Shown piece by piece: positions 14,443 through 63,112 of a DNA stretch of 64,000 bases. The translations under genes were made by a program, and so were the position numbers. The DNA is from Eledone cirrhosa (lineage: Eukaryota): the NCBI GenBank assembly GCA_964016885.1, contig OZ024740.1, positions 52,452,001-52,516,000 of the forward strand, in the 5' to 3' direction. Position 1 is the first letter of the stretch. The number at the start of each line of letters is the position of its first letter. Below the pieces are notes generated by a model. The model had not been told where the DNA came from, ran no database searches, and saw only the letters and a program-made list of their open reading frames with translations.

Positions 14443-16770
14443 ATGTTTCTTTATTAGATACAGGGGCACAAAAGAAGGGGTCAAATACAAAGGGGGAAGT
14501 TTACATACAATAAAAACGTGTAAAATACTATTACAAATGCAATTTAAAAATCAATCGATTTTCCCCAATAAGGGGAGACATTACATATGGGTAACACATA
14601 CCCCCGAAAAAATGTGCAACCCTCATCTCCAGGAGTACGAAGAGTGAATACCTCTTTCCACTCTTCCTCTTTTTCCTCAACCTACAGCCTGATGTAGAGA
14701 GAAGGCCCATTCACTCGGGCCATTCTCGCCACTTTCACCCACCTTTCATAAAACTTGCTGGGGTACAGCACCTCTCTCTCCATCCTGATTCTTCTTCTAA
14801 AGTGGTATTTGAAAAAAAGAATCAGTTGTTGGCCGGAGAAAAAGGTGTCTGACCTCAGCCCTTTTAACCTTGTCCACCATACAACCTCTTTCGCCATAGC
14901 TATCACACAAAGGAAAACCGCCCCTCCTTCGTTTTTGAAGGAGGGTGGCGGTTTGATCATGACAATGGACTCGGTGGTCAACCCGATTGTTCCCACCCGC
15001 GACAATAGTCGTTCTACATAGCCTCACAAGTCGGTAACGCCCGGGCAGTGTACGAATGCGTGCGCGACGATTTCTTCGTCTCGTACGCATCTCGGACAGA
15101 TCTTTTTCGAAGGGTCCCTTCCCGGGTGCTCGTGTCTGTAGAGCTTGTCTCGAACTGGTAGAGCTCCTCGGTAGCACTGCCAGGCCAGGGACTTTTGGAA
15201 GTTGTCCATCGGTCCCGGCCGGAAGTCCTACCGAACAGACTGGCCAGTTCGTATTCCTCTACGCCTAGAGTTTCTCCGAGCGTGTCGTCGCACTTGCTGC
15301 GGAACAACCCTCTATAGAATGACGAAGTGGAGTCTCCACTGATCGCCGGGTCCGCCTGCCAGAGGGCTGTGAGCTCCTGAGCACATTCGATGTGCCAGGC
15401 GCCCAGTTTTCTCGGTCTTTGCTTGACCCAGGATTGCAGCTCGGTAAGCGAGACGAGTCTCGGAAAGGCTCGCCTCACAAACGAGGCCCACACCGGTTGA
15501 CCGGTGAGGAATACCTGGAGGTTCCGTAGCCTTAATGCGTATTTACGCATCTGCAGCCACGGCATCCCAGCCCTTCTTTCGAAGGGTGTTGATAGCAGAT
15601 GGATCTCCTCACCAAAGGAGCCCACTTCTTCCAAAGGAATTGGAAGAGTGCGCGCTCCATTTTGGTGAGCATTTCACCTGGGCAAGGCACGACAGTCAAG
15701 CAGTAATAGATGACTAACGCTATATAAGCGTTCGCCACCTCCGCCCGACCTTTCAGGGATAGTTTGCACTCGGCCCACTTCTGGGCTAGTCTAAACACCC
15801 TGTTCATTAGCTCACCCCAGTTCTTCTCCACCTGGAGCTCTGCTCCGAACCAAACCCGGAGCAGCTTCACCGGGCCCTCCGTCCGGCGTCTGACGACGCC
15901 ATCGGAATGCATCGGTTTGCCTCCCCACGATCCGAGTTGCAAACCGATGGACTTGTCCCGGTTCAGCTTCGCTCCTGTGAACCTTTCGTATTCCTTCAGT
16001 AAGGTGCCGACTTCCTCGATTTGCGAGGTGCTCGACACTATTACTGTCACGTCGTTGGCGTAGGCCGATGCCGCTTTCTGCAGTCCCGGTTCCAGAGGGA
16101 TGCCCTGCAATAGCTCCAACTTCCGCAGCAGTGGCTCGAGAGTCAGTACGTACAGAAGGGAGGTGAGAGACCATCCTGTCGGATGGATCGAGTGATATGG
16201 AACGGCTCCGAGAGGTAGCCGTTCACCTTGACCCTTGAGCAGATGTTGCTGCTATGCATTGCAGCAATCCAGCCCCTGAACACGGGTCCGAAGCCTGCCG
16301 CCTCGAGCACCGCATTCAGGTAACGATGGTCAACCCTATCGAAAGCCTTAGACTGATCCAAGTTGATCAGGGTCCCACCGAAGTCGGTTTACACCCTAGC
16401 CTCTCTACGATGTATCGCATGAGGTGGAGGTTGTCGTGTATGGACCTGGTCGGGATTGCGCATGTCTGCGCTTCTCCCACCAGGTTTTTGACGTCAAACG
16501 CCAGCCTCTTTGCCAACACCTTGGCCAAAATCTGTAACTCTGTGTTTAGTAGAGTTATGGGCCGGAAGTTGCCTATGTCATCCCCCTTATTCTCGTCCTT
16601 CCTGACTAGCGTGACTACGCCTTGGTCACACAACTGGGAATTCTCCCGTTCTGCTGCCAGTTGCAGTAGAAGGGTGCTGACAGCAGACGGATCTGCTCAC
16701 CAGTGGAGCCTGCTTCTTCCAAAGGAACTGGAAGAGCATGCGTTCCAAGTTGGTGAGATGTTCACGAGAT
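14443..16770 (-). mobile_element. Tx1/L1-clade LINE, 5'-truncated copy (RT to 3' end)
   Basis: FRPITLLN, KAFDRVD, SAYANDV, CPRC..EE..HAFVHC; flanked by (GATA)n and (GGTA)n(GATA)n. Confidence 0.9.
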
Positions 16771-16965: not shown

Positions 16966-17592
16966 TCTGGTTACTTGGAGTGTTGCACATAAAATATTTC
17001 TTGGTTTCATTGTATCCAATCCATTCAAAATGTATTCTCTAAGGAGGCCGTAGGTGTACTGTAATTCTATTACATTGTATTAAATACATACCATGGCTTT
17101 CGTCATCAACTGATCTTCCTTTACTTCTCATACCAACCCTCTATGTTTCAGTGATTTCATTTGTATTTAATATTTGTTCAAATTATCTGTGAACAATGAG
17201 ATGGCTTTCCATATATTTAAAGTTTTTTAATATTTCTATATTTCTATTTAAATTTTAGCTACTAAAGGAGGAAAAAAAATAAAGTATGCGACCTTTTGTT
17301 TTATGTCGGTAAATATTATTATTATTTTTTATTTTGTTTTTATTTATACAGAAATTTTAAAACAATCAAATATATATTATAAAAAATAATGTTAATAAAG
17401 TGACAACATAGGAGATAAATGTCGGATCCAAAAATATATATTCCTAAAAACATTGTCAAAATATGTTTCACGAAATATATATAGAGATAGAGAGAGGGGA
17501 AGAAGAAGAAGAAGAAGAAGAAGAAGAAGAAGAGGTCTTTGATGTCCCAAGTAATTTTCAATAAGGAGTTTCTTTCCACCTACCCTATATAT

Positions 17593-17799
17593 AATGAAAG
17601 AAGTGTGGTAAGGAACCAGATGGACCATAACGCACTAGAGTACTCAATACTTAGGGTAGTAGAGTGGGTAATAGGAAAATGTTCAAGACCCCGACGACAG
17701 AGCTCAAGTCGTTTCGACGGCTATTTCTGAACTAAATAGTCCAGAAATAGCCGTCGAAACGGCTTGAGCTCTGCCGTCAGGGTCTAGAACATTTTCCTA
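17593..17799 (-). mobile_element. Hairpin+tail element, copy B
   Basis: Tail 17593-17672 plus near-perfect palindrome 17673-17798; ends in TA. Confidence 0.88.
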
Positions 17800-18112
17800 T
17801 ATATATATATATTAAGAGTTTAGATCGATTGTTCGCTCAGTGGGATTAACGTGTAAGTAAGTGACTTTTCGACAGACACGTGTACTCTTATCGTAATTTT
17901 CAAGGAGATTCAGTTTGATACAGTATATGATAAGGCTCGCCTCTTTTGAATAACAGATACAGTCCACCCAACGAGCTTCCTATAGTTTAACAGTCAATGT
18001 CTCCCACGGACATTATTTAGAGTTCCCTAGACACAAGCACTTACCACCACTTTATATTTCCGTAGAAAATGGGACGTTTGAGTCACCATCGACCAGAAAG
18101 AAAACTCCTTAA

Positions 18113-18826: not shown

Positions 18827-18860
<34 letters not shown>

Positions 18861-18861
<1 letters not shown>

Positions 18862-19055
18862 GGAAAAGAGTCAGGACCCTGACGGCTGAGCTCCGGCCGT
18901 TTCGACAGCTAGATCCGAACTGTTCGGATCTAGCTTTAAAATGGCGGAGCTCAACCGTCGGGGTCCTGACTCTTTCCCTATTACCCACTCTACTACCCTA
19001 AGTATCGAGCACTCTGGTGCGTCATGGTCCACCTAGTTTCTTGCCACACTTTATT

Positions 19056-19058
<3 letters not shown>
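18861..19058 (+). mobile_element. Hairpin+tail element, copy C
   Basis: Palindrome 18861-18980 plus conserved tail; TA tracts on both sides. Confidence 0.88.
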
Positions 19059-19092
<34 letters not shown>

Positions 19093-20840: not shown

Positions 20841-21149
20841 TTCAAGAGTAACCAATCTTAAAGAGAGAGATGGAGATAGGAGAGGAGATAGGAGATAGGA
20901 GAGGAGAGATTGGTGAATTAGTTAGAAGCCAAAGCATAAAGGCATGTGCTCAATGTGCAATATGCAGTGGAAGGCAACTAGGTGGCTGGGTTCATGCAGA
21001 GGTTAGGTGCACAGAGCTGAAAATATTCATTAGTTAAGCAAAACAAGACCACAAATTTCACAAGGAAGACATTATTAAAAGATTGTCAACATATTTTAGT
21101 TTGATGTAAGGAATGTAGAGAATAATAATAATAATATTAATAATAATAA

Positions 21150-21265
21150 TAATTGTTTCTACGTTAGGCACAAGGCCAGCAATTACCCAGTGCATTACTG
21201 GTACTTTATTTTATCGACCCCGTAAGGATGAAAGGCAAAGTTAACCTTGCCGGGATTTGAACTCA
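21150..21265 (-). mobile_element. Nin-domain SINE, truncated, inserted in the PLE left arm
   Basis: SINE consensus inside an (AAT)n run; absent from the right arm. Confidence 0.83.
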
Positions 21266-21292
21266 TTATTAATAATAATAATAATAATGTCC

Positions 21293-21411
21293 GTTTACAA
21301 TTGTTTCGCTACTCCATATAATATTTCTGGATCAAATGATTATATATCATTATTGATCTGGTTCAGTTGAACATAATTAACATAGGTAGAAATAGAGCAG
21401 CTCATCGGAAC
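21293..21411 (-). ncRNA. Hammerhead ribozyme, C4 variant with extended stem II
   Basis: Reverse-complement copy of 24063-24181. Confidence 0.68.
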
Positions 21412-22984
21412 TTCAAAATGAATATAAATTAAAATAAGGAAAGAATGTTACATAAATGTAATGTTCCATATGTTGGTATTTCACTATGGTTGTCTGCCAT
21501 AGTGGAGCAGAATTCTTCTGTCGAGGCTGCATTGTGTGAGATCTGCCTATGGGTAACAAGATGGCCGCCAATGGACATATTTACCTTACTAATTAGAGGG
21601 TGGTTTCAGGGGAAGTAACTCCTCGAGAGATTAGAAATTGTGGATAATTTATAGTTAAGTGCTAATTTTTTAATTTTTTAATTGAGAGACAATGTAAGGG
21701 AGGTAACTTATAATTAGCTAAGTTAGTTATAGCTATTTAACTTATTAGCTACAAGTAAAAATGGGGCTAGATGACTATGTTGGGTCAAATATTCTATTGG
21801 CGAAGGAATTAGCCCTTCGATGTTGACAGCTAATAGTTACCTCCGTTCTATCGTTAATCGGTAGAGGTCGTGATAGAGTTATGTAATATGCTTCGGTAAG
21901 ACAGAGGTCACAAGATTTCTTCGTCCATTGAACGGTTGGGCCCTAGCCAAGATATCCCATGTTAGTGAGTGTTCAATGTTGGTTAATTTAAGGTTTTTAA
22001 TGAGCCTAGCTAGAGATGTCGAACATCTGTTGTTAGGGTCTCGGAATGAAAAAGAGTGCGCGTTATAGCGTACCTTAAAAGGGTTAGAGCTAGACCCGAT
22101 ACATGAGCTGGTCTGCGAAGCAGTTTTAACCGTGCACCTATAGACTATGTTGGGTGTCAGGCAATGTCCACTTAGTGGGCATGCATTAGGGTAACGGCAG
22201 TTGCAGTTACTTCTGCGGATAGTGAGAGTAGGGTTGTTTAACCTAAGCGGTTGGTCAGTGCAGAAGGATTAGATGGGGGAGGTGTGCTACTAGAGTAATT
22301 ATTGGTGTAGTGGCGTGGTATATTTGATGGAGGGGTACCGCGGTGTGGGAGTTATACTGTCTTAGTTTATGATGGTTACTGAATGCGATGTGGCTAGCTA
22401 GGTTAGGTGTTGTGGAGAATGAGATTTTAATGTTATTTTTATTAAAGAGTTTGTAATATCTATGGTTGGGGGGTGGGTGTTTAGATAGGATAGAGAAGAA
22501 GCGTTTAGGTATATTAGTGGCTAGATTAGATGAGAATGGGGGGTTAAGCCAGGTGATATTTCTAGGCCTATTCCTTCTAGGGGTTCTAGTGGAGTTAGTA
22601 GGGCCTTCATAGGGTTATTATTACCTGGGCATTTGTTATTTGTCATCCCATTGCTCATTCCTATTCTAGGGTTGATTTTTAATTTGCTACTTGGAGTGGG
22701 GAGCAGGCCACTGCCACCATTAAGGTTCCCTGTATAAGTGCTAAAATTCCGGCGAATCTGGCTATATACTAAGGTATTTCTAGTTCTAGTGTTAAGTTTA
22801 TTATGGTTGTGGTGAATTGCTGTGTTATGGCATTTAGGTATGTAGTAAATGGACTTTTCATAACCAGATTCAGAAAGAGCCTTATTATAATATGTTGCAT
22901 GGTTTATAAATATCTCCTCATTTGCTGATATATATATAGATATATGAGATAGATTTGATTACTGCTCTGATGACTGACTCGATG

Positions 22985-24306
22985 CATTGACTTGCTCAAA
23001 AAACAATTACACAGATTCTTTAAAAATAACGGTCTCTCTATCACCATCGAGCCGAACCATAAAGTAGTAAACTTCCTAGACGTTACCCTGGATCTTAACA
23101 ATAACCTATATTATCCTTACCATAACCCAGGTGAAATACTTACATATATTAGCCCACACTCTAACCACCCACCGGCAGTTATCAGAGCAGTAATCAAATC
23201 TATCTCATATAGGATCTCCATGCTATCAGCAAATGAGGAGATATTTATAAACCATGCAGCATATAATAAGGCTCTTTCTGAATCTGGTTATGAAAAGTCC
23301 ATTTACTACATACCTAAATGCCATAACACAACAATTCCCCACAACCATAATAAACTTAACACTAGAACTAGAAATAACTTAGCATATAGCCAGATTCGCC
23401 GTAATTTTAGCAGTAACAGCACTTTTACAGGGAACCTTAATGGTGGAAGTGGCCTGCTTCCCACTCCAAGTAGCCAATTAAAAATCAACCCTAGAATATG
23501 AATGAGCAATGGGATTACAAATAACAAATGGACGAAGAAAATCTTGTGACCTCTGTCTTACCGAAGCATATTACATAACTCTATCACGACCTCTACCGAT
23601 TAACGATAGAACGGAGGTAACTATTAGCTGTCAACACCGAAGGGCTAATTCCTTCGCCAACAGAATATTTGACCCAACATAGTCATCTAGCCCCATTTTT
23701 ACTTGTAGCTAATAAGTTAAATAGCTATAACTAACTTAGATAATTATAAGTTACCTCCCTTACATTGTCTCTCAATTAAAAAATTAAAAAATTAGCACTT
23801 AACTATAAACTACCCACAATTTCTAATCTCTCGAGGAGTTACTTCCCCTGAAACCACCCTCTAATTAGTAAGGTAAATATGTCCATTGGTGGCCATCTTG
23901 TTACCCATAGGCAGATCTCACACAATGCATCCTCGACAGAAGAATACTGCTCCACTATGGCAGACAATTGATATACCCAGGACACCATAGTGAAATACCA
24001 ACATGTGGAACATTACATTTATGTAACATTCTTTCCTTATTTTAATTTATATTCCTTTTGAAGTTCCGATGAGCTGCTCTATTTCTACCTATGTTAATTA
24101 TTTTCAACTGAATCAGATCAATAATGATATATAATCATTTGATCCAGAAATATTATATGGAGTAGCGAAACAATTGTAAACGGACATTATTATTATTAAT
24201 ATTATTATTATTATTCTCTACATTGCTTACATCAAACTAAAATATGTTGACAATCTTTTAATAATGTCTTCCTTGTGAAATTTGTGGTCTTGTTTTGCTT
24301 AACTAA

Positions 24307-24311
<5 letters not shown>
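22985..24311 (+). mobile_element. Penelope-like element, right arm (RT C-terminus, GIY-YIG deleted, tail)
   Basis: ORF 22992-23501 has PLE RT motifs GLSITIE..KVVNFLDVTLDL..YYPYHNP..YISPHSNHPP; ends in a TA tract. Confidence 0.88.
24063..24181 (+). ncRNA. Hammerhead ribozyme, C4 variant with extended stem II
   Basis: GTT CCGATGA GCTGCTCTAT...(about 74 nt)...ATGGAGTAGC GAAA CAATTG TA AAC; 10-bp stem II including G-U pairs; palindromic stem III. Confidence 0.68.
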
Positions 24312-24359
<48 letters not shown>

Positions 24360-24425: not shown

Positions 24426-24515
24426 GACTCTTTTCCTATTACCTACTCTACTACCCAAAGTATCGAGTACTCTGGTGCGTTATGGTCCAACTGGTTCCTT
24501 ACCACACTCCCTTTG

Positions 24516-24517
<2 letters not shown>
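24426..24517 (+). mobile_element. Hairpin+tail family, tail-only copy D
   Basis: Conserved tail without the palindrome, between TA tracts. Confidence 0.85.
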
Positions 24518-24559
<42 letters not shown>

Positions 24560-28381: not shown

Positions 28382-31300
28382 AAGGCCTTTTGCCTTCTTT
28401 CAAACAAACCAAGGACAAACAAGGAGCTACTACCAACACCAAAACCCCAACATCAACACCCCAAACCAAACACAACACAAAAACCTGGAACGTCCACTCC
28501 CGCACGACCACAGACCAGAGACAACAACACACACAAAATCCCACTGAAAACACCCTCCCTTGCCTCCTCTCTCTCTGTCAAATACTTCCACAAACACCTG
28601 CACAAACACTCCACCACACAACATACCCCTCCCATCCACCCCTGATTCCGAAGTCTCAGACACAGGAACCTCTACATCTCCAAGTGAGGATGAAAAGGAA
28701 CCCCAAAAATAAAAACAAAACAAAAAAAGAGACAAAAAAAACATAAAAGCAAAAATATCTACAGAAAACACGCACACACCCAACACAACCATAAACATAC
28801 CGCCACAAACGACAAACACACCAACAACACAATCACCACCAACATAACCAAACATTTCAACAACAAAACAAACACCCACACCTCCACAATCACAAACCCC
28901 AACCGCAAAAAGAAAACTACAAACAGAAACAGTACACATAAAAAACAAAACACATTACACATACATAAAAACAACAAACAAAGAACTGGTGGAAACTGTC
29001 CGAAAGGACCCCACAATCCAAAAGGAAGGGAAAACCTTCCCCACCAACGACCCACCCCAAACCTTAAACTAATCAGGGTAACAACCCTACAACACGAAAC
29101 ATTAAAAGGGAACTTCCCACATGATGTGGGCCCCCCTTGCCAAAAACCCCTTAACCGTGTCCTGCTAAAAGGATTCCCTCCGTCCCCAAACACCCCCAAT
29201 CTAGACATGGAGATCGTACAACCCACCTCCAGGAAACTAAAAGGTAAGTGTCCTGCCTTTTCACTCCCTAACTCTTCTTCGCCAACATGGCAACTATACA
29301 AGTTGGATGTTTGAATGTACGTGGCCTGGGCTTGCCCTGGAAACAGGGCCAGTCTTTGAATGATCTCAGGTCACATTGTATAGATGTGTTAGCCATCACC
29401 GAGTCCAGGATTCACGACAAGCAGCAGCTAACCCCCATTTCAGATGATTTTGAGATCTACGCTTCTCTCTGTCAGCCAGGAGGTGGGGGGGGGGGGTTGC
29501 TGTTATTTTTCGAAAAAACCTGGATCTCAAAGTACAGACGATTCACTTGGACCTGGAAGGCAGCCTGGTGGTCCTGGACGTGAATGGTAGTGAAGGTGGA
29601 GCTTTCAGACTGGGTGCCGTATATGCTCCGACTGGGACATCGCGACCAGAGTTCTTCAAGCATCTGGAGCTATTCCAAGGAACGTCTCGCTCCTTAGTGT
29701 TAGCGGGGGACTGGCATTGAATCTTAGACGCACATTGGGACTATGTAGGAGCTTGTGATAATAGAGGGAGGTGTAATAGCCTCAAAAATCTCATCAGCCA
29801 ATGCCAACTGGCTGATAAATATCGACTAGACTTCCCAAGTGCACCACTGTGAACGTGGAGCAACCACACTGGGTCTTCTAGATCGTATTTAGATAGATTT
29901 CTAATTAGACAGAATGATAAGGAAACATTAATCTGTCCACAAATGCACATGGTTGCCTATTCAGACTACAAATTAGTCACCTGCATAGTCAAACTTGATA
30001 GAACACAGACAGGGACCAGGATACTGGAAGCTAAACATGTCGCTCCCGGCGTGTAAGGCCTACAGTAAACGGATTAGCACCTTAGTTAAGAGCCAGATTA
30101 CGGGGGCCATCGTCAACAACAGGTGGTGGAGCTCTCTCAAGAGAGCAATTAGAATAGAATCGATAGCGTTTAGCAAGGAAGTAGCTTCAGAAAAAAACAG
30201 TAGAAGAAGCACTTACGAATGGCAGTACAGCTGACGTGCTAGCGGCGAGAACGGCACTAGACCAGTTCTTCAACGTGAAACGCGAAGGTTGTATTGTCAG
30301 AAGTAGAACACGTTATCTAAGAAACGAGGGAGCCAAAGCTGTTAGCTGGGCCCAAGTGGCAGAGGCGAAAAGTGGTAACAAATCTACAATTCGGTATTTC
30401 CAATACAAAGATTGACGCATTCTACTTGAATCCAAGCAGATGTGCACGGACTTCCAGCAGCATTTTGCACAACTATTCGGGCAAAGCGGTACGTCGAGCG
30501 AGGTGATGGACTTCAGTTCCTACCTCGATGGCCTACCACGACTCTCGAGCACGGATGCAGAGAGCTGCGAAAGGCCGATCACAGCGGACGAAATAGAAGA
30601 TGCCCTAGGCCGCTGTGGGAAACGCAAATCACTCGGTTTAGATGGTCTACCCTACGAGCTTTACATAGGCATGCCAGACTTGTTCCTTGGCGTCCTCGAA
30701 GCAGTCTACTGCAACTGGCAGCAGAACGGGAGGATTCCCAGTTCTGTAGGCAGAGGTGTAGTAATGCTGATCAGGAAAGATGAGAACAAGGGGGATGATA
30801 TAAGCAATTTCAGGCCCATAACTGCTCAACACAGAGTTAAAGATTTTGGCCAAGGTGTTAGCAGCGAGGCTGGCGCTTGTCGTCGAGAATCTGGTAGGGG
30901 AAGCGCAAACGTGTGCAATCCTGACCAGATCCATACACGACAACTCCACCTCACGACAACATCCACCTCATGCGATACATCATAGATAGGGTAGGGTGTA
31001 AACCTGGCTTCGGTGGGGCTCTGATCAATTTAGATCAGTCTAAGGCATTTGATAGGGTCGACCATCAATACTTGGAAGTGGTTCTCAAGGCGGCCGGCTT
31101 CAGTCCCGTCTTCAGAAGCTGGATCGCTGCCATGCACACCAGCATTCCAAATCATGCGTTCCATCCGTCAGGGATGCCCTCTCTCCTCCATTCTGTATGT
31201 ACTGACTGTCGATCCCTTACTGCGGAAGTTGGAGCTATTGCAGGGCATCCCGATTGAACTAGGACTGCAGAAAGCAGCGTCAGCCTATGCCGACGAAGTA

Positions 31301-32677
31301 ACGGTAATGGTGTCGAAAACCTCGGAAATCGGGGTAATCGGCAATCTATTACAGGAATACGAAACGTTGACAGGAGTAAGACTAAACCCAAACAAGTCTG
31401 TCGGTTTGCAACTTGGCACATGGAGAGGCAAACCCATGCTTTCAGACAGTGTCGTTGGACGTTGGACTAGTGAAATTGCTCGGGGTCTTGTTTGGTCTAG
31501 ACCTGCAGGTGGACAATAACTGGAACGAGGTCACGACGAAGGTGTTTGCACTCACCCAGAAGTAGGCTGAGTGCAAACTCTCCTTGAAAGGTCGAGCAGA
31601 GGTGGCGAACACTTACATAGCGTCCGTCATTTACTACCGCTTGACAGTCGTGCCTTGTCCCCGCAAATACCTCACCAAAATGGAACGCCTACTCTTCTAG
31701 TTCCTCTGGAAGAAACAGGCTCCATTGGTGAGGTGATCCATCTGCTGTCAACACCCTTCTAACGGAGGGCTGGGCATGCCGTGGCTGATGATGCGCAAAC
31801 ACGCGCTGATGCTACGCCATTTCCCAAGTATTCCAGACCAGCGAACCGGTGTGTTTGTCGTTTGTGAGACGAGCTCTTCCACAACTCACTAACAGAGCTG
31901 CAGTCCTGGGCCAAGCGAAGACCGAAAATGGGCGCTGGAACCTCGAGTGCCTTCAGGTGCTCACAGCCCTCTACCAAGCGGAAACGGCAATCAGCGGAGA
32001 CTCCACTTCGACATTCTATAGGGGATTAATGGAGGATAAGTGCGACGGCGTTCTCAGGAAAACTCTAGGCATCAAGGCGGACGAACTGACCAGTCTGTTC
32101 GGGAGGACTTTCCGTCCAGGGCCTATGGATAACTTCTATCGTGAGAATCACCCCGCCGCCTTCATTTATGAATGAAGGAGGGGTGGTTTTCCTCTGCCTG
32201 GTGGCTATGGCAAAATAGGTAATATGGTGGACGAGGTTAAAAGGACTGAGGGCAAACACCTTTCTCTCCGGACAACAACTCACCCCCTTCTTTAAGTACC
32301 ACTTCAGAAGGAAGGTGAGAGTGGAGAGAGAGGTGTTACACCCCAGTAAATTCGCTGAAAGGTGGGTGTATATGGCGAAAATGGCCCGAGTGAATGGGCC
32401 TTCTCTATATATAAACCTGTAGGTTGAGGAAGATAAACAGAGGGTAGACTGGAACACTTACAAAACGTGTTCCTGGTGTTGAGGGTTTTACTATCCACGG
32501 GTGTAAAACAACCCCGCTGTAGCGTCCCCCCCCCCCCCCCACTAGTGGGGATTTCAATTGTTTTATTTTTTATATAGTTTACTGTTATTTATCATTGTTA
32601 AAGATTTTATGAAAAAACCCCGCCGTCACGTCTTGTAATGTCCCTTTTTGTGCGCCCCTGGGGCAAATAAAGAAAGA
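28382..32677 (+). mobile_element. Older Tx1/L1-clade LINE, 5'-truncated within ORF1, 12-bp TSD
   Basis: ORF2 starts MATIQVGCLNVRGL at 29287; APE and RT motifs (GYWKLN, KAFDRVD, QGCPLS, AYADEV) with many stops; TATCTATTTGTC at 28370-28381 and 32678-32689. Confidence 0.92.
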
Positions 32678-32738
32678 TATCTATTTGTCGATCTATTTAG
32701 CTACTTACCTATCCCTCTACCTGCCTACCTAACTACTT

Positions 32739-44914: not shown

Positions 44915-44995
<81 letters not shown>

Positions 44996-44998
<3 letters not shown>

Positions 44999-45177
44999 AA
45001 AATGTTTAACCCCGACGGCAGAGCTCAGGCCGTTTCTAGAGTCCAGAAATAGCCGTCGAAACGGCCTGAGCTCAGCCGTCGGGGTTAAACATTTTCCTAT
45101 TACCCACTCTACTACCCTAAGCATTGAGTACTCTGGTGCGTTATGGCCATCTGGTTCCTTACCACACCTCCTTCGTT
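44996..45177 (+). mobile_element. Hairpin+tail element, copy E
   Basis: Palindrome 44996-45098 with asymmetric loop, plus tail; TA flanks. Confidence 0.88.
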
Positions 45178-45183
45178 ATATAC

Positions 45184-45247
<64 letters not shown>

Positions 45248-45269
45248 TATATATATATATATATATATA

Positions 45270-45311
<42 letters not shown>

Positions 45312-45355
45312 TATATATATATAGTATATATATATATATATAGTATATATATATA

Positions 45356-45401
<46 letters not shown>

Positions 45402-45403
45402 TA

Positions 45404-45435
<32 letters not shown>

Positions 45436-45724
45436 GTATATATATATATATATATATATAGTATATATATATATAGTATATATATATATATAGTATATAT
45501 ATATATATAGTATATATATATATATAGTATATATATATATAGTATATATATATATATAGTATATATATATATATATATATATAGTATATATATATATATA
45601 GTATATATATATATATATATATATAGTATATATATATATATAGTATATATATATATATATATATATAGTATATATATATATATAGTATATATATATATAT
45701 ATATATATAGTATATATATATATA

Positions 45725-45782
<58 letters not shown>

Positions 45783-46297
45783 TATATATATAGTATATAT
45801 AGTATATATATATATATATATATATATAGTATATATATATATATATATATAGTATATATATATATATATATATATAGTATATATATATATATATATATAG
45901 TATATATATATATATATATATAGTATATATATATATATATATAGTATATATATATATATATATATAGTATATATATATATATATATAGTATATATATATA
46001 TATATATATAGTATATATATATATATATATAGTATATATATATATAGTATATATATATATATATATAGTATATATATATATATATATAGTATATATATCT
46101 ATATATATATATAGTATATATATATATATATATAGTATATCTATATATATATATAGTATATATATATATATATATAGTATATATATATATATATATAGTA
46201 TATATATCTATATATATATATAGTATATATATCTATATATATATATAGTATATATATCTATATATATATATAGTATATATATCTATATATATATATA

Positions 46298-46328
<31 letters not shown>
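45178..46328. repeat. Long (TA)n array with periodic TAG interruptions
   Basis: Directly visible. Confidence 0.95.
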
Positions 46329-46331
<3 letters not shown>

Positions 46332-47178
46332 GGAAAAAATGAAACGAAATTTCATTTCTCACTCTTAGTACGGCTGTTACTTAAATATAAGTATGTATAC
46401 GTACATACATATATGTATACAGACGTACAGTAGTATGTATATATATATACATACATGCACACATATATATATGTACGTATCGATTGACCGAATATTTATT
46501 ATAATGCTCGGTGTGTTTGTAAACAAACATCCCGAATTAAGCTGTACAGTGTCTAGCAACGATCGTTGCTCATTTGTTCAACACTGACAAAGGGACACCG
46601 AGCATTCGGGATGTTTGTTTACAAACAAACCGAGTATTATAATAAATGTTCGGTGAATCCATACGTACATATATATATGTGTGCATGTGTGTATATATAT
46701 ATACATACTACTGTACGTTTGTATACATATATGTATGTACGTACACATACTTATATTTAAGTAACAGCCGTACGAAGAGTGAGAAATTAAATTTCGTTTC
46801 ATTTTTTCCGTTTATTGTTTTCGGTACCCCGGCCGATTAACTCACTCGATATGCAAATTAGGCTGCTCAGCCGTTAATATGCATAAGGAAAGTATATACT
46901 TTCAGACGTTCAACCATCTGGCAGGAAAGTATACGTTGCTGACGATAGCTAATAAGCTTGAAACTAGTACAGCGTTCCTTTGTCAGTGTTGAACAAATGA
47001 GCAACGATGGTTGCTAGACACTGTACGGCTTAATTCGGGATGTTTGTTTACAAACACACCGAGTATTATAATAAATATTCGGTGAATCCATACCTACATA
47101 TATATATGTGTGCATGTATGTATATATATATACATACTACTGTACGTCTGCATACATATATGTATGTACGTATACATA

Positions 47179-47183
<5 letters not shown>
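46329..47183 (+). mobile_element. Retrozyme-like unit of about 429 nt, partial tandem with inverted arm
   Basis: TTCGGGATG recurs at 46605 and 47034; 46329-46597 is an inverted copy; contains an HHR; another fragment at about 50255-50347. Confidence 0.78.
46934..46974 (+). ncRNA. Minimal type I hammerhead ribozyme
   Basis: CGTTG CTGACGA t-AGCT-aata-AGCT-t GAAA CTAG TA CAGCG; canonical core, palindromic stem III. Confidence 0.87.
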
Positions 47184-47247
<64 letters not shown>

Positions 47248-48703: not shown

Positions 48704-49435
48704 CTATGCAAATAAGTAATGGTATAAACAAAACATATACTTAGCTCCCACATCAATGACGTAAAATATCCACGTATGGCTCGTACTATCCGTTAGGGTA
48801 TAACGTAAGGCTGTAATACAGGAACGTTTTGTGCAATTTATGTTTACAAGCCGAAATTGCCTCAGATTTTTGTTTAAGATGTGGTCTGTGGCGTAGAGTA
48901 TTTCCAGGGCATCAGCGGCGCAGAGGTCACATGGTCTTTTATTTCCGTTATACGATCTAGCCCTAGCTAGGATCTCCCAGTGTAACTTATATTGGGTGTG
49001 GTTGTCTTTTAGACTCCAGATATAAGCTGAAAGTGACGTCATATTCCTTCTTAGAGGGTAACGAAAAGAATGGGTATGCATGTAAAGACGCTGCTTGAAT
49101 CTATTGGCGGTTAACCCTATGTAGGCCCTACGGGATGTGGGTGTTACAACCTTACATTTGTAGACACTGTTACTAGAGAGGCGTTTCCCGGATAGGGGGC
49201 AATCAACCCGATTCCTACAATTACAGTTAGTACTAACTACAGGGCTGCACGTGTTCCTACGGCTAGGTAGTTTACCTAAATTTGAAGCTGTGATGTTATG
49301 TGCAAGGTTAGGAGTCGTAGAGTAAGAAATTTTAATAGTATTTCTATTAAAAATGTTACTATATTTATGTGTAGGGGGAAAATGCTTCGTAATAAGGGAA
49401 AGAAAGATCTTAGCTAATGGAGTGGCCATCTCCAT
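48704..49435 (-). pseudogene. PLE GIY-YIG endonuclease region
   Basis: IFNRNTIKISYS..NL..CNCRNRVDCPLSGK..VYKC..YIGLT..FKQR..H..SF..TSLSAYIW.LK..WEIL..CDLC. Confidence 0.88.
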
Positions 49436-49699
49436 ATTATATGGTGGGTTATACGAACAAATGCGACGGGATCTATTTCTTCTAGGTCTATTTTCGTACT
49501 CAGTATATGCTACCTTTGGATTTTAGTCTTCAAATTTATTATTATTACTATATATATATATATATATAAGACCCTGCTGACATATCTGTATTCGTGTATG
49601 CCTACATATATACTTCGTCGAGTGTTCTATCCTGCGTACACTTGGGTCGGTTGATTAACTAACACAAAATATACCAAGCATACATATATACATATATAT

Positions 49700-49821
<122 letters not shown>

Positions 49822-49938
49822 GAATACAAATATGTCAGCAGGGTCTTTAGGGAACAACACCAATAACCAGCCCGTGGTATACCACTGAATGGAAATTACA
49901 TAAGTCATTTTTATTTTTGTTCGTGTCATTTTATTTAT

Positions 49939-50071: not shown

Positions 50072-50255
50072 AAGTCTGTCTTAAGCCAGAAGGCTCATTT
50101 GGCCGGTGCTTATCTCGGTTTCATGGCGTGAATCGACTGAGAGTACAAGACTCCCCCCTGGACAGGACGCCAGTCCATCGCAAGGTTAAACCTCCAGCTA
50201 TTGCTGGTACTCATTTCCAGCTGACTATACTGGAGCAACGTGAAATGAAGTGTTT
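50072..50255 (-). mobile_element. SINE 3' part (second family)
   Basis: Minus strand GCGATGGACTGGCGTCCTGTCCAGGGGGGAGT; shares GGAGCAACGTGAAAT with 26723-26737. Confidence 0.65.
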
Positions 50256-50404
50256 ATACGTCTGTATACATATATGTATGTACGTATACATACTTATATT
50301 TAAGTATCAGCCGTACTAAGAGTGAGAAATGAAATTTCATTTTTTCCATATATATATATGCAGCCCTGCTAAGAAGACGAGCTGCGGGAAAATGTGTCTA
50401 ATGA

Positions 50405-54449: not shown

Positions 54450-54511
<62 letters not shown>

Positions 54512-54517
<6 letters not shown>

Positions 54518-55126
54518 TGAATATAAAAAAAAAGATAAACACAGTATTTACATATATGTGTTCAAATCGTAAGGGAACAGATTCGTATTTTTTAGTATTT
54601 TTTTCACCTTAGCGAATCTGGTCCCTTTCAATTTGAACACATATATGTATATATCTGTGTTTATCTTTCTTTTATATTCAATTATAATATACGGCTCGGA
54701 AAAATCTCTTTCCTAGAGCTATTTTATTGTAAGAGAGTATTTTGAGCTTCTAACTCAATATATACCTTTGATATATTCGGCTCCGTTAATTTGTTGAGCT
54801 AATTCAAATGTCGAGTAAACCTGGCTGCTATTTTTAGTGGTGTGAGCTTGTGAGACACGCTAAGTTTCGATACCATGTGCGTTATTATATATACGCACAC
54901 TATTCAGTTTTTTTAATATACTTAGAAGTGACCAGGATACTAATTCTTCACCCACTGACGAGCAAGAATCGGTATTCCTCTTCACAATCAATTTGCGAAA
55001 CTGCATAGCCAAACGCTGTCTGGGTGATTGGTAGTTACCACAATTCCGATTTGAATTTATTTTCTTGATTTATTCTTAAATTGAGACTGGCAAACCCTAT
55101 CGTCCATATTTAGTATTTTTTTCCTT

Positions 55127-55128
<2 letters not shown>
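54512..55128 (+). mobile_element. Retrozyme-like unit of about 518 nt with inverted 5' arm
   Basis: Inverted repeat 54512-54585 / 54612-54688; TAGTATTTTTTTC at 54593 and 55111; contains an HHR; TA flanks. Confidence 0.7.
54949..55026 (+). ncRNA. Type I hammerhead ribozyme, canonical core
   Basis: CACCCA CTGACGA GCAAG...TTTGC GAAA CtGC-atagccaaac-GCtG TC TGGGTG. Confidence 0.85.
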
Positions 55129-55160
<32 letters not shown>

Positions 55161-55163
<3 letters not shown>

Positions 55164-55362
55164 AACCAGTAAGACCCCGACAGCTGAGCTCAAGCCGTTT
55201 CGACGGCTAATTCTGGATTAGCTAATTCTGAATTAGCCGTCGAAACGGCTTGAGCTCAGCTGTCGGGGGTCTTACTGGTTCCTATTACCCACTCTACTAC
55301 CTCAAGTATTGAGTACTTTGGTGCGTTATGGTCCACCTGGTTCCTTACCACATTTCCTTCGT

Positions 55363-55363
<1 letters not shown>
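55161..55363 (+). mobile_element. Hairpin+tail element, copy F
   Basis: Palindrome 55161-55283 plus tail; TA flanks. Confidence 0.88.
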
Positions 55364-55397
<34 letters not shown>

Positions 55398-55399: not shown

Positions 55400-55450
55400 A
55401 GCTTCTACAGGACTAAAAATGTTTCATTCGTGAGAAATCATCAGGAAGCT
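55400..55450 (-). ncRNA. Type I hammerhead ribozyme, canonical core
   Basis: Minus strand: AGCTTC CTGATGA t-TTC-tcac-GAA-t GAAA CA-tttttagtcc-TG TA GAAGCT; at the 3' end of an island of about 290 bp. Confidence 0.8.
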
Positions 55451-56620: not shown

Positions 56621-56706
56621 CGAATATTTATAAAACAAACTTTGTATTTTATCTATTTGTCGGACTTCAAACAAATTAAATACCCCTTCTACTTATATAT
56701 ATATAT

Positions 56707-56950
56707 AGGAACGAGTAGGACCCCGACGGCTGAGCTCAAGCCGTTTCGACGGCTAATTCTAGACTCACTCTCTGCTACTCACCCTCTCTCCCACTTCCTC
56801 CATCTGGACTCTGAGTCCAGAATTAGCTGTCGAAACGGCTTGAGCTCAGCCGTCGGGGTCCTACTCGTTCCTATTACCCACTCTACTACCCTAAGTATTG
56901 AGTACTTTGGTGCGTTATGGTCCATCTGGTTCCTTACCACATTTCCTTCG

Positions 56951-56952
<2 letters not shown>
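56707..56952 (+). mobile_element. Hairpin+tail element, copy G (longest loop)
   Basis: Palindrome 56707-56872 plus tail; TA flanks. Confidence 0.88.
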
Positions 56953-57019
<67 letters not shown>

Positions 57020-58631: not shown

Positions 58632-58673
<42 letters not shown>

Positions 58674-58907
58674 TTAGAAACACACAGATACATGCGGACA
58701 CACACATATATACATGAATGCATCCGCACCCAACTGTGAGTTAAGGGTGCCAACTTCACCGATGTTGCTCAATGAATGACTGGGACAGACCAATTAAATT
58801 TGAACCAGACTGAACCAGTATCAGAGTTAAAAATACATTATGAAGAGAGAAGAAACATTTAGATATAATTAGTAATAAAATGTATCATACCTAAACTGCT
58901 CCTAAAT

Positions 58908-58995
58908 TCCTCGACTACGTAGTTTCGTGGCATAAACAAAAACAATATATCAAAGATATAGAGTCCTTGCGAGGTCTGCCAACTTATCAAGAGGA
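58908..58995 (-). ncRNA. U3-A8 hammerhead ribozyme, array copy 1
   Basis: Reverse complement of 59975-60062. Confidence 0.8.
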
Positions 58996-59498
58996 TACCT
59001 CATTTTACTAGTCTCAAGAACGCGTCTACACGACGTGAGAAAGAATCCCAAAAGGCGGAGGGGGAGATAGTCACGCGATATAACGGTCGAGAAACAGAGC
59101 TAAGCCTCTTATAACCACGAAGAAAATACCACGGAGGCGGAGGGGGTATTCATATCGAGGCCGTAGAAGAGGTAGTGAAGAAGGCGAGAAGTATGAGTAA
59201 TGGAAGCTTTCCAGTTGTCCCCACACTTCAAAGATTGCTCGACCAGAGGGAGTTATTAATATATTTAGAAACACACAGATACATGCGGACACACACATAT
59301 ATACATGAATGCATCTGCACCCAACTGTGAGTTAAGGGTGCCAACTTCACCGATGTTGCTCAATGAATGACTGGGACAGACCAATTCAATTTGAACCAGA
59401 CTGAACCAGTATCAGAGTTAAAAATACATTATGAAGAGAGAAGAAACATTTAGATATAATTAGTAATAAAATGTATCATACCTAAACTGCTCCTAAAT

Positions 59499-59586
59499 TC
59501 CTCGACTACGTAGTTTCGTGGCATAAACAAAAACAATATATCAAAGATATAGAGTCCTTGCGAGGTCTGCCAACTTATCAAGAGGA
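59499..59586 (-). ncRNA. U3-A8 hammerhead ribozyme, array copy 2
   Basis: Reverse complement of 59975-60062. Confidence 0.8.
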
Positions 59587-59974
59587 TACCTCATTTTACT
59601 AGTCTCAAGAACGCGTCTACACGACGTGAGAAAGAATCCCAAAAGGCGGAGGGGGAGATAGTCACGCGATATAACGGTCGAGAAACAGAGCTAAGCCTCT
59701 TATAACCACGAAGAAAATACCACGGAGGCGGAGGGGGTATTCATATCGAGGCCGTAGAAGAGGTAGTGAAGAAGGCGAGAAGTATGAGTAATGGAAGCTT
59801 TCCAGTTGTCCCCACACTTCAAAGATTGCTCGACCAGAGGGAGTTATTAATATATTTATAAGAGGCTTAGCTCTGTTTCTCGACCGTTATATCGCGTGAC
59901 TATCTCCCCCTCCGCCTTTTGGGATTCTTTCTCACGTCGTGTAGACGCGTTCTTGAGACTAGTAAAATGAGGTA

Positions 59975-60062
59975 TCCTCTTGATAAGTTGGCAGACCTCG
60001 CAAGGACTCTATATCTTTGATATATTGTTTTTGTTTATGCCACGAAACTACGTAGTCGAGGA
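59975..60062 (+). ncRNA. U3-A8 hammerhead ribozyme, array copy 3
   Basis: TCCTC TTGATAA GtTGGCA...(44 nt)...TGCCAC GAAA CTACGTAG TC GAGGA; predicted cleavage after GUC at 60057. Confidence 0.82.
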
Positions 60063-60565
60063 ATTTAGGAGCAGTTTAGGTATGATACATTTTATTACTA
60101 ATTATATCTAAATGTTTCTTCTCTCTTCATAATGTATTTTTAACTCTGATACTGGTTCAGTCTGGTTCAAATTGAATTGGTCTGTCCCAGTCATTCATTG
60201 AGCAACATCGGTGAAGTTGGCACCCTTAACTCACAGTTGGGTGCGGATGCATTCATGTATATATGTGTGTGTCCGCATGTATCTGTGTGTTTCTAAATAT
60301 ATTAATAACTCCCTCTGGTCGAGCAATCTTTGAAGTGTGGGGACAACTGGAAAGCTTCCATTACTCATACTTCTCGCCTTCTTCACTACCTCTTCTACGG
60401 CCTCGATATGAATACCCCCTCCGCCTCCGTGGTATTTTCTTCGTGGTTATAAGAGGCTTAGCTCTGTTTCTCGACCGTTATATCGCGTGACTATCTCCCC
60501 CTCCGCCTTTTGGGATTCTTTCTCACGTCGTGTAGACGCGTTCTTGAGACTAGTAAAATGAGGTA

Positions 60566-60653
60566 TCCTCTTGATAAGTTGGCAGACCTCGCAAGGACTC
60601 TATATCTTTGATATATTGTTTTTGTTTATGCCACGAAACTACGTAGTCGAGGA
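60566..60653 (+). ncRNA. U3-A8 hammerhead ribozyme, array copy 4
   Basis: Same motif, +591 bp. Confidence 0.82.
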
Positions 60654-61156
60654 ATTTAGGAGCAGTTTAGGTATGATACATTTTATTACTAATTATATCT
60701 AAATGTTTCTTCTCTCTTCATAATGTATTTTTAACTCTGATACTGGTTCAGTCTGGTTCAAATTGAATTGGTCTGTCCCAGTCATTCATTGAGCAACATC
60801 GGTGAAGTTGGCACCCTTAACTCACAGTTGGGTGCGGATGCATTCATGTATATATGTGTGTGTCCGCATGTATCTGTGTGTTTCTAAATATATTAATAAC
60901 TCCCTCTGGTCGAGCAATCTTTGAAGTGTGGGGACAACTGGAAAGCTTCCATTACTCATACTTCTCGCCTTCTTCACTACCTCTTCTACGGCCTCGATAT
61001 GAATACCCCCTCCGCCTCCGTGGTATTTTCTTCGTGGTTATAAGAGGCTTAGCTCTGTTTCTCGACCGTTATATCGCGTGACTATCTCCCCCTCCGCCTT
61101 TTGGGATTCTTTCTCACGTCGTGTAGACGCGTTCTTGAGACTAGTAAAATGAGGTA

Positions 61157-61244
61157 TCCTCTTGATAAGTTGGCAGACCTCGCAAGGACTCTATATCTTT
61201 GATATATTGTTTTTGTTTATGCCACGAAACTACGTAGTCGAGGA
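61157..61244 (+). ncRNA. U3-A8 hammerhead ribozyme, array copy 5
   Basis: Same motif, +1182 bp. Confidence 0.82.
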
Positions 61245-61316
61245 ATTTAGGAGCAGTTTAGGTATGATACATTTTATTACTAATTATATCTAAATGTTTC
61301 TTCTCTCTTCATAATG

Positions 61317-61349
<33 letters not shown>

Positions 61350-61352
<3 letters not shown>

Positions 61353-63112
61353 GAGGGTCATATTTGTGTAATATTGCCAGAATTAATAACAGAACACCCT
61401 CACTGTTTGGTTGGTTTTCGCTTTTCGCTTCTGTGTCTTTTATATCGGTAATCTAATTTATTCGGTCCTCAATGTTGCCATTGACTGACCAACGGTCAAA
61501 AATAATACAGATACAATATAGACACAAACACATATATATAGTTTATCAAAGTTCTTTCGTTGCACATCTGCAACAGCGTCAGTGGTGCTATTGTTTCCTC
61601 CCGTTGCATTGTATTTTCTACGCTATCTTTATTTAGTCTGTTTATATATTTATTTATTTGTTTATTTTATTTTGTCTTCTTCGCGCATGCGTTTGCGTGT
61701 GTGTATAGTGTTTTGTTTGATTTGTGTTCGTGATTGGGTGGCTGTGTATTGGTTAATGTATTCTATCTTCGCTAGTGTGTGTTTATATGTGTTTGTTGTT
61801 ATTGTGCTTGTGTATGTATTTATTTATTTATTTATCTATTTATTTATTTATTTATTTATATTTCCTTAGGTCAGTGTTGTTTGTTTGGGTGTTGTTGTTA
61901 TTCCATTCATTTTTTTCTGTTTAGCCTTGGCCTTCTAAGTTCTATTTCACTGGCCTCTCTGATTTGCCTATCTGCTGGGTCATTTCTATGTTTAGATATT
62001 ATTCTAATTTCTATGTTGTCTATGTTACCGTCGTGTTGTTGTCTGGCATGTTCGTATAGTACTGAACCGTTTTTTCGTCCTTTTAGTTCCCCCCAGTGTA
62101 TGTCTATCCTTTCACCTATGCTACGAGCTGTCTCTCCTATGCATGTTGTAGTCATGTTTCTGCAAGTACCCTCTGTACATCTTATGCTATAGACTACGTT
62201 TCTAGAAACGTAATCTATAGCATAAGATGTACAGAGGGTACTTGCAGAAACATGACTACAACATGCATAGGCGAGACAGCTCGTAGCATAGGTGAAAGGA
62301 TAGACATACACTGGGGGGAACTAAAAGGACGAAAAAACGGTTCAGTACTATACGAACATGCCAGACAACAACACGACGGTAACATAGACAACATAGAAAT
62401 TAGAATAATATCTAAACATAGAAATGACCCAGCAGATAGGCAAATCAGAGAGGCCAGTGAAATAGAACTTAGAAGGCCAAGGCTAAACAGAAAAAATTGA
62501 ATGGAATTACAACAACACCCAAGCAAACAACACTGACCTAAGGAAGTATAAATAAATAAATAAATAAATAGATAAATAAATAAATAAATACATACACAAG
62601 CACAATAACAACAAACACATATAAACACATACTAGTGAAGATAGAATACATTAACCAATACACAGCCACCCAATCACGAACACAAATCAAACAAAACACT
62701 ATACACACACGCAAACGCATGCGCAAAGAAGACAAAATAAAATAAACAAATAAATAAATATATAAACAGACTAAATAAAGATGGCGTAGAAAATACAATG
62801 CAACGGTAGGAAACAATAGCACCACTGACGCTGTTGCAGATGTGCAACGAAAGAACTTTGATAAACTATATATATTTGTTTGTGTCTATATTGTATCTGT
62901 GTTATTTTTGACCGTTGGTCAGTCAATGGCAACATTGAGGACCGAATAAATTAGATTACCGATATAAAAGACACAGAAGCGAAAAGCGAAAACCAACCAA
63001 ACAGTGAGGGTGTTCTGTTATTAATTCTGGCAATATTACACAAATATGACCCTCCCCAAGTATAACGATATTTGTTTCGACACACGATTTCATATCAAAA
63101 ACCTCGCAAAAC
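61350..63112. mobile_element. PLE 3' fragment as a spacerless 1.7-kb palindrome
   Basis: Arms 61350-62203 and 62204-63057 are centred on TCTAGA; the right arm continues to 63112; TA flanks. Confidence 0.93.
62201..62500 (+). pseudogene. PLE GIY-YIG endonuclease C-terminal domain (mirrored on minus at 61907-62206)
   Basis: SRNVIYSIRC..C...CIGETARSIGERIDIH...SVLYEH..QQH...IRII...RQIREASEI...PRLNRK. Confidence 0.87.

What the first reader, a model, noticed from the sequence alone, without database searches (positions are those of the whole stretch)
46329..47183. 429-nt unit whose inverted arm starts almost at the predicted ribozyme cut site
Seen: a canonical minimal HHR at 46934-46974 with predicted cleavage after 46969. 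The inverted arm 46329-46597, read on minus, begins GTGTCCCTTTGTCAG, matching GCGTTCCTTTGTCAG about 2 nt after that cut. The plus arm is a permuted 1.3-unit tandem. The inverted arm and the copy at about 50255-50347 both end at TTTTTTCC next to TA. Inference: a DNA record of an HHR-processed RNA 5' end and a preferred 3' priming point.
Basis: partly seen in the sequence, partly recalled or inferred. Interest (0 to 1): 0.72.

Follow-up and report, generated by a model that had tools for sequence, protein, structure and literature searches.

The report
Penelope-type ribozyme repeat with inverted arm
This is one copy of an abundant 429-base non-coding repeat that carries a predicted self-cutting RNA motif and is laid out like a known class of jumping-gene insertion; its copies share a preferred end, but the closeness of the flipped arm to the predicted cut site is not shown to be more than coincidence.

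Summary
The anatomy is real. A predicted type I hammerhead (helix I 46933-46975, cut after 46969) sits in a 1.36-unit direct arm of a 429-nt ORF-less repeat. That arm is joined head-to-head to a ~270-nt inverted arm, and the whole lies between (TA)n runs. This is the published layout of Penelope-like element (PLE) insertions, including a one-sided 3' 'tail' (~60 nt here), so the unit is a non-LTR retrozyme / non-autonomous PLE-type repeat.

The preferred 3' end holds up: 42 contigs of run X1 leave the unit at 46815 into (AT)n, and 3 contigs of run X4 leave at the second end, 46756.

The 5' claim is unproven. A templated filler blurs the breakpoint to 2-6 nt past the cut. One independent head-to-head junction in RAD reads lies at cut+4, but that is 1 of 10 non-discovery ends (P about 0.06-0.14). 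The direct arm spans the ribozyme uncut, and 0 of 4 arm ends of two other hammerhead families in the window lie at their cuts. I put run-off at a ribozyme-cleaved RNA end at about 35%. Verdict: new member of a known kind.

The parts
45177..46328 (.). Left target: 1.15-kb (TA)n array interrupted by 49 G and 9 C; no target-site duplication can be read
46326..46597 (-). Inverted arm, about 270 nt; RNA-sense on minus; covers unit positions about +5 (range +2 to +6) to +272-275 after the predicted cut; contains no ribozyme core
46326..46384 (-). 3' 'tail' (56-64 nt) that the direct arm's 3' end does not reach; ends in a stem-loop followed by TTTTTTCC, GTT and 3 nt shared with (TA)n
   Evidence: ends at 46815 and 46756
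46595..46606 (+). Head-to-head junction; 6-nt filler 46598-46603 inside a 12-mer that is the exact reverse complement of 46503-46514 (snap-back-type templated insertion, inferred)
46604..47185 (+). Direct arm, 582 nt = 1.36 units of 429 nt; begins 64 nt after the cut position of the preceding unit, spans one intact ribozyme, and ends 211-216 nt after the cut with 5 nt shared with (TA)n
46933..46975 (+). Predicted type I hammerhead ribozyme: helix I 6 bp, helix II 4 bp closed by a U-U mismatch, helix III in the palindrome ACTAGT (dimer type); predicted cut between 46969 and 46970
47186..47243 (.). Right target (TA)n run
50257..50349 (+). Separate 5'-truncated 3' fragment of the same family, with tail, ending next to (AT)n; its 5' end is 174 nt after the cut

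Best explanation
This is a copy of a high-copy, protein-free 429-nt repeat with a predicted type I hammerhead ribozyme, likely moved in trans by a Penelope-like element's reverse transcriptase-endonuclease, and its inverted arm is most likely an ordinary 5'-truncated second cDNA whose end happens to fall near the predicted cut. Shown: the layout (head-to-head arms, partial tandem, one-sided tail, (TA)n target), two recurrent 3' ends about 60 nt apart, head-to-tail tandem copies elsewhere in the genome, and a templated filler at the junction. Inferred: the PLE protein would nick both strands of a (TA)n run and prime one cDNA from each side, starting at the two internal RNA sites that bound the tail. 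One cDNA would run 1.36 units through an uncleaved ribozyme (multimeric or circular RNA) and the other would stop after about 270 nt. The two cDNA ends would then be joined by snap-back microhomology repair. The ribozyme likely acts as a dimer to cut multimeric transcripts into monomers that may circularise.
For: Layout. The same layout is described as typical of PLEs in PMC8557442 (passages) and PMC3846280 (passages). A purified PLE protein cuts and extends both target strands, prefers AT-rich DNA, starts RT at two internal sites that bound the tail, and needs no ribozyme cleavage in vitro (PMC11167929). Family data: 11,239 of 16.3 million contigs of X1 and 74,067 of 12.5 million RAD reads of X19 were laid; the 3' loose ends are 46815 (42 contigs, X1) and 46756 (3 contigs, X4); joints 47092->46700 with about 36 nt between occur from 22-24 read starts, showing tandem units. 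The longest ATG ORF in a unit dimer is 51 aa. PLE ORF remnants lie in the same window. 5' ends are scattered: 9 of 10 non-discovery ends are away from a cut. The snap-back signature is as in PMC2943611 (passages).
Against: An independent head-to-head junction (46837|46973) puts a 5' end at cut+4, almost the same base as here, and the other such junction I could read (46828|46954) also falls inside the ribozyme. For family-A free ends alone this is 1 of 4, P=0.064, so ends may be enriched at the ribozyme. No autonomous partner sharing this unit was found; none of the window's PLE remnants matches it and no genome is held. The tail is longer (~60 nt) than the 30-40 nt reported. Rfam does not recognise the ribozyme, and the MFE fold of the 51-nt motif is not unusual (z -0.47). 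Two-sided priming is not established in vivo; PMC3846280 argues for self-priming instead.
Confidence: 0.55

Rival explanations
1. Same element and route, but the inverted arm ends where it does because the RT ran off the 5' end of a ribozyme-cleaved linear monomer, and a few bases were lost during end joining. The locus would then record one cleaved and one uncleaved template in a single insertion.
For: The breakpoint is 2-6 nt past the predicted cut, a 1.6% chance for a single end. An independent junction lies at cut+4 in both RAD runs (26 and 20 reads, 2 starts each); its short side of 23 nt equals the distance to the AATT site at 46856-59, which fits head-to-head geometry. Variants shown inside the ribozyme fall at tolerant positions (N7, loop II, a helix I wobble pair), consistent with a maintained ribozyme (only 40 of 163 variant rows shown).
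Against: Only 1 of 10 non-discovery ends is at a cut (P=0.14); 1 of 8 free ends (P=0.11). 0 of 4 arm ends of the 591-nt and ~518-nt hammerhead families in this window are at their cuts. No 5' loose end near the cut is among the 6 shown for X1, whose weakest shown row has 12 contigs. In the anole PLE, ribozyme mutants insert normally and no RNA reads begin at the cut (PMC11167929). The discovery end was picked after the fact.
Confidence: 0.35
2. 5' ends cluster near the ribozyme because the RT stalls in the long helix formed by the ribozyme's helix I and its flanks, with no cleavage involved.
For: Both free RAD junction ends (46954, 46973) and the window's end fall within 46954-46976. The region 46907-46995 is predicted to form an extended hairpin.
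Against: Three ends only; folding z-score is -1.5; many other helices are predicted in the unit, so this place is not singular.
Confidence: 0.12
3. The inverted arm arose after or apart from retrotransposition, by fold-back or template switching at a replication fork or break in the (TA)n-flanked copy.
For: Templated filler at the junction; long TA runs on both sides; rare alleles are shared among arms in a mosaic way.
Against: The inverted arm is 4-5% diverged from both direct copies (6-8 of 156 nt) and carries the family-majority allele at a site where both direct copies do not. It ends at the family's recurrent 3' end. At least four repeat families in this window show the same head-to-head layout.
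Confidence: 0.05

Closest known systems
Metazoan non-LTR retrozymes (PMC7229834; bioRxiv 10.64898/2026.07.22.740005)
   Same: ORF-less unit of a few hundred nt (429; reported 150-450), type I hammerhead with weak palindromic helix III, tandem copies, high copy number, co-occurrence with PLEs. The U-U mismatch at the base of helix II is as in axolotl HHR_Amex2.
   Different: This locus has only one ribozyme, so it is not 'active' by the two-HHR criterion of the preprint. Expression and circles could not be tested. The parts of those papers that I read do not analyse inverted arms, tails or breakpoints.
EN+ Penelope-like element insertion structure (PMC8557442, PMC3846280)
   Same: Partial tandem, inverted 5'-truncated copy head-to-head, tail on one end only, (TA)n target, ribozyme in the repeat.
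   Different: No RT or GIY-YIG ORF; tail about 60 nt rather than 30-40; no autonomous partner identified.
Poseidon element of the green anole, PAc (PMC11167929)
   Same: Two internal 3' start points bounding a tail, near a predicted stem-loop; AT-rich target; both strands could be extended.
   Different: PAc is autonomous and its start sites lie 111-118 nt into the ORF; here the ends lie about 215 and 273 nt after the cut. All three window 3' ends share 2-5 nt with (TA)n, whereas PAc starts without homology; the chance of >=3 nt is 0.15 per end, so this is weak.
R2 retrotransposon with HDV-like ribozyme (recalled; R2 and HDV ribozymes are mentioned in PMC11167929 and PMC4209133)
   Different: Different ribozyme and retroelement class; a fixed 5' end is not shown for this family.

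Membership tests
Canonical metazoan type I hammerhead | Core boxes CUGANGA, GAAA, UH with helices I and II | tested here: met
   none in 60 of 60 shuffles
Canonical metazoan type I hammerhead | Helix I 6 bp, helix II 4 bp, helix III 1-2 bp with palindromic loop | tested here: met
   against the definition in PMC4209133
Canonical metazoan type I hammerhead | G10.1-C11.1 pair closing helix II | tested here: not met
   U-U mismatch; the same departure is reported for axolotl HHR_Amex2, which cleaves
Canonical metazoan type I hammerhead | Match to an Rfam hammerhead model | tested here: not met
Canonical metazoan type I hammerhead | Self-cleavage at the predicted site | not testable with these tools
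   needs an in vitro assay
PLE min-HHR (strict sense) | No helix III/loop 3, long helix II | tested here: not met
   helix III present, helix II 4 bp
Non-LTR retrozyme | Tandem unit of about 150-450 nt with a type I hammerhead | tested here: met
   period 429; head-to-tail joints in RAD reads
Non-LTR retrozyme | No protein-coding ORF | tested here: met
   longest ATG ORF 51 aa
Non-LTR retrozyme | Two consecutive ribozymes at the locus ('active' copy) | tested here: not met
   one ribozyme at this locus; tandem units exist elsewhere
Non-LTR retrozyme | Expressed as linear monomer and circular RNA | not testable with these tools
   no RNA run was available to lay
Penelope-like element insertion | Partial tandem plus head-to-head inverted 5'-truncated copy | tested here: met
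Penelope-like element insertion | Optional 3' tail between two recurrent ends | tested here: met
   ends 46756 and 46815; about 60 nt versus 30-40 reported
Penelope-like element insertion | AT-rich or (TA)n target | tested here: met
Autonomous PLE | RT plus GIY-YIG ORF | tested here: not met
Non-autonomous PLE derivative | Sequence shared with the pLTR of an autonomous PLE | tested here: inconclusive
   no match to PLE remnants in this window; whole genome not held

The most novel reading that the evidence does not exclude
Ribozyme-cleaved linear monomers are real in vivo templates for Penelope-type reverse transcription. The inverted arm is a run-off cDNA that stops at the hammerhead cut while the partner cDNA reads through an uncut or circular RNA, so genomic inversion breakpoints are a fossil record of in vivo hammerhead cleavage and give the PLE ribozyme a demonstrable role.
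Probability: 0.35. Interest if true: 0.6.

Novelty: new member of a known kind. Interest (0 to 1): 0.3.

Why it matters
What the hammerhead does for EN+ PLEs is stated to be unclear (PMC8557442), and the one in vitro system found cleavage dispensable (PMC11167929). If breakpoints in this very abundant family pile up just past the cut, that would be cheap genomic evidence of cleavage in vivo and of which RNA form is copied. The family also links retrozymes to PLE machinery by insertion anatomy (tail, two 3' ends, inverted arm) rather than only by co-occurrence and pLTR phylogeny. If the pile-up is absent, the locus is an ordinary repeat insertion.

Tried and rejected
1. Whole-genome breakpoint plot: no genome is held.
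2. More copies from collections: 0 matches in metagenome contigs with two patterns and 0 in viral contigs; the prokaryote genome collection was not scanned.
3. Expression: no RNA holder listed; not evidence either way.
4. A step-up of about 5,000 RAD reads between 46972 and 46980 looked like 5' ends at the cut, but reads starting at the CATG at 47113-16 end there by length (145 nt reaches 46972), so I rejected it as a likely artefact.
5. Contigs ending at 46971 (X1) or starting at 46968 (X4) coincide with the common variant at 46972 and lie 30 nt from the one at 46998, so I read them as assembly-graph breaks.
6. Most large loose ends (46750, 46828, 46929, 46997, 47022) continue in family-like sequence, so they are diverged subfamilies, not breakpoints.
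7. Of 7 opposite-strand joints shown (15 joints shown, 41 hidden), I dropped 4 with an end in 46700-46750 (three inside the palindromic low-complexity stretch, one ending on the AATT site). I counted 2 as head-to-head junctions by read geometry. The tally above covers 46700|46722, 46702|46714, 46750|46750, 46750|46859, 46828|46954 and 46837|46973, which is 6 rows; the table shows no seventh, so the count of shown opposite-strand joints is 6.
8. Rfam miRNA matches at 46385-46480, 46660-46760 and 47090-47175 are below gathering score and due to (TA/TG) low complexity.
9. Pfam found nothing in the four PLE-like fragments; one longer homologue with PF26215 was found for 48707-49522.
10. Unconstrained cofolding of two ribozyme copies did not give the active dimer fold; this is uninformative.
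11. Earlier-scan look-ups by place, by sequence and one by words were empty.

Full report
Setting. The window is AT-rich eukaryotic DNA dense in (TA)n, (CA)n and (TACA)n runs with broken retroelement ORFs. Its repeat style recalls a cephalopod (recalled, not tested). No whole genome is held.

Observation. The element lies between a 1.15-kb interrupted (TA)n array (45177-46328) and a (TA)n run at 47186-47243. The plus arm 46604-47185 is 1.36 copies of a 429-nt unit, and the arm 46326-46597 is the reverse complement of the same unit. A type I hammerhead lies at 46933-46975 with a predicted cut after A46969. A strict descriptor found 2 such motifs in the window and none in 60 of 60 shuffles. Rfam did not recognise it. 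Its helix sizes fit the 'canonical metazoan' dimer-type form of PMC4209133 (parts 1-2 of 4 read), except for a U-U mismatch at the base of helix II, which PMC7229834 reports for a cleaving axolotl ribozyme (parts 2-4 of 6 read).

The junction. Ungapped homology of the inverted arm begins at 46974, five nt after the cut, with a mismatch at 46976. The 12 bases 46595-46606 occur once more in the window, as an exact reverse complement at 46503-46514 inside the inverted arm, and carry that arm's allele rather than the direct arm's. That allele is also the family majority, so another template is possible. An insertion plus both flanks copied as an inverted repeat is the snap-back signature described in PMC2943611 (passages).

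The 3' ends. The inverted arm ends at unit position 46812-15, the solo copy at 50257-50349 ends at 46809-11, and the direct arm ends at 46751-56. Laying four public runs on 46700-47092 showed a very abundant family: 11,239 of 16,285,364 contigs in X1, 74,067 of 12,467,656 RAD reads in X19, 69,144 of 12,785,554 in X20, and 61 of 8,254,286 contigs in X4 (a second organism). X1 may be the window's own source and is not independent support for this locus. In X1, 42 contigs leave the unit at 46815 into (AT)n; in X4, 3 contigs leave at 46756 into AT repeats. Two recurrent ends 59 nt apart are the PLE 'tail'. PMC8557442 (passages) and PMC3846280 (passages) describe partial tandem, inverted 5'-truncated copy, one-sided 30-40 nt tail and AT-rich or (TA)n targets as typical. 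PMC11167929 (parts 1-2 of 4) shows that the tail is the stretch between two internal RT start sites and that the protein cuts and extends both strands. Joints from 47092 back to 46700 with the missing 36 or so nt between them (22-24 read starts) show head-to-tail units elsewhere. With no ORF above 51 aa, this is a non-LTR retrozyme in the sense of PMC7229834 and of bioRxiv 10.64898/2026.07.22.740005 (parts 1-3 of 5; supplements not seen), which treats such repeats as non-autonomous PLE derivatives.

The 5' ends. One search showed 15 joints and hid 41. Six of those shown change strand; four have an end in 46700-46750 and were dropped as palindrome or ligation effects. Two, 46837|46973 and 46828|46954, have short sides of 23 and 32 nt, exactly the distance to the AATT site at 46856-59. 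I therefore read them as head-to-head junctions at two other loci; this is inferred from geometry, since the enzymes are not on record. One free end is at cut+4, the other 15-16 nt before the cut. The window also holds two other hammerhead-bearing head-to-head insertions, a 591-nt family at 58666-61320 and a roughly 518-nt one at 54507-55129 whose period rests on a 15-nt match. None of their 4 arm ends is near a cut. Leaving out the discovery end, 1 of 10 ends lies in +1 to +7 (P=0.14), 1 of 8 free ends (P=0.11), and 1 of 4 free ends of this family (P=0.064). None of the 6 loose ends shown for X1 is a 5' end near the cut, but 952 rows were hidden and ends spread over several bases could be missed. 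A depth step at 46972-80 in RAD reads is explained by read length. The direct arm contains the ribozyme intact, so at least one template was uncut or circular. The two overlapping direct copies differ at 8 of 156 sites, one of them past the element's end, and at two sites the first copy carries an allele common in the family. This fits a heterogeneous tandem transcript better than one circle, though later mutation or conversion could contribute. In PMC11167929, ribozyme mutants insert normally and no RNA read starts at the cut. An earlier agent report from another genome (e1-9850483; an unchecked AI note) called the same coincidence only mildly favoured genome-wide; I treat it as a lead, not as support.

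Ribozyme maintenance. Among the 40 of 163 variant rows shown, those inside the ribozyme are at N7 (46943), loop II (46953) and the two partners of one helix I wobble pair (46936, 46972); none is at a core base. Hidden rows prevent a claim of invariance, and linkage of the two helix I changes on one molecule was not shown.

Mechanism. Shown: layout, recurrent 3' ends, tandem source copies, templated junction. Inferred: transcription of a tandem source; dimeric self-cleavage; binding of a PLE protein near the tail stem-loop; nicking of both strands of (TA)n; one cDNA primed from each side at the two start sites; joining of their ends. For the inverted arm's stop I give roughly 50% ordinary truncation, 35% run-off at a cleaved end and 12% stalling at the ribozyme helix; these are judgements, not computed values.

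Novelty. The class and layout are in print. In six library searches and the parts of papers read, I found no report mapping PLE or retrozyme genomic 5' ends to the hammerhead cut. The library lacks most subscription papers, and I read no supplementary files (Fig. S2 of PMC11167929 bears on this). PMC3088659 was seen only as a search listing. Verdict: new member of a known kind, interest 0.3, with a testable open side-claim.

Noticed in passing
window 58666-61320: A very young (99.5-100% identical) head-to-head array of a 591-nt unit, about 2.0 plus 2.5 copies, between (TA)n runs. It has five predicted type I hammerheads with the U3-A8 core covariation and a palindromic helix III (cuts after 60057, 60648, 61239 on plus; 59504, 58913 on minus). 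U3-A8 is reported for Schistosoma PLE ribozymes in PMC4209133. With consecutive ribozymes it is a better candidate for an active retrozyme than the locus studied. The left arm stops about 14 nt beyond two full turns.
   Followed up: partly
window 54507-55129: A third hammerhead-bearing head-to-head insertion between (TA)n runs; ribozyme core at 54955 with long helices II and III, predicted cut after 55020.
   Followed up: partly
window 55400-55450, minus strand: A predicted type I hammerhead whose cut (55406) lies about 12 nt from a (TA)n run.
   Followed up: no
window 3863-4083, 17586-17812, 18833-19087, 24431-24551, 44964-45182, 55129-55395, 56694-56985: Seven copies of another short family in (TA)n runs; at least five have short inverted arms of variable length and a one-sided tail of about 70 nt; no hammerhead seen in these fragments.
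   Followed up: partly
window 48707-49522 (minus), 22521-23501, 61350-63057: Remnants of PLE-like ORFs (GIY-YIG-type C-terminal region recognised by eye; homologue P0001 carries PF26215). 61350-63057 is a 1.7-kb near-perfect palindrome, and 21023-24313 has nested inverted arms.
   Followed up: partly
window 45177-46328: The (TA)n array is broken by single G bases mostly every 14-24 nt, and it lies between the 3' ends of two different PLE-type insertions; slippage is likely, reiterative RT addition was not tested.
   Followed up: no
window 6980-16760 and 29254-32699: Several broken copies of a LINE-type retroelement with an RVT_1 domain.
   Followed up: no
window 49568-49612 and 49803-49847: A 45-nt inverted repeat flanking a microsatellite-filled stretch, possibly a small MITE.
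   Followed up: no
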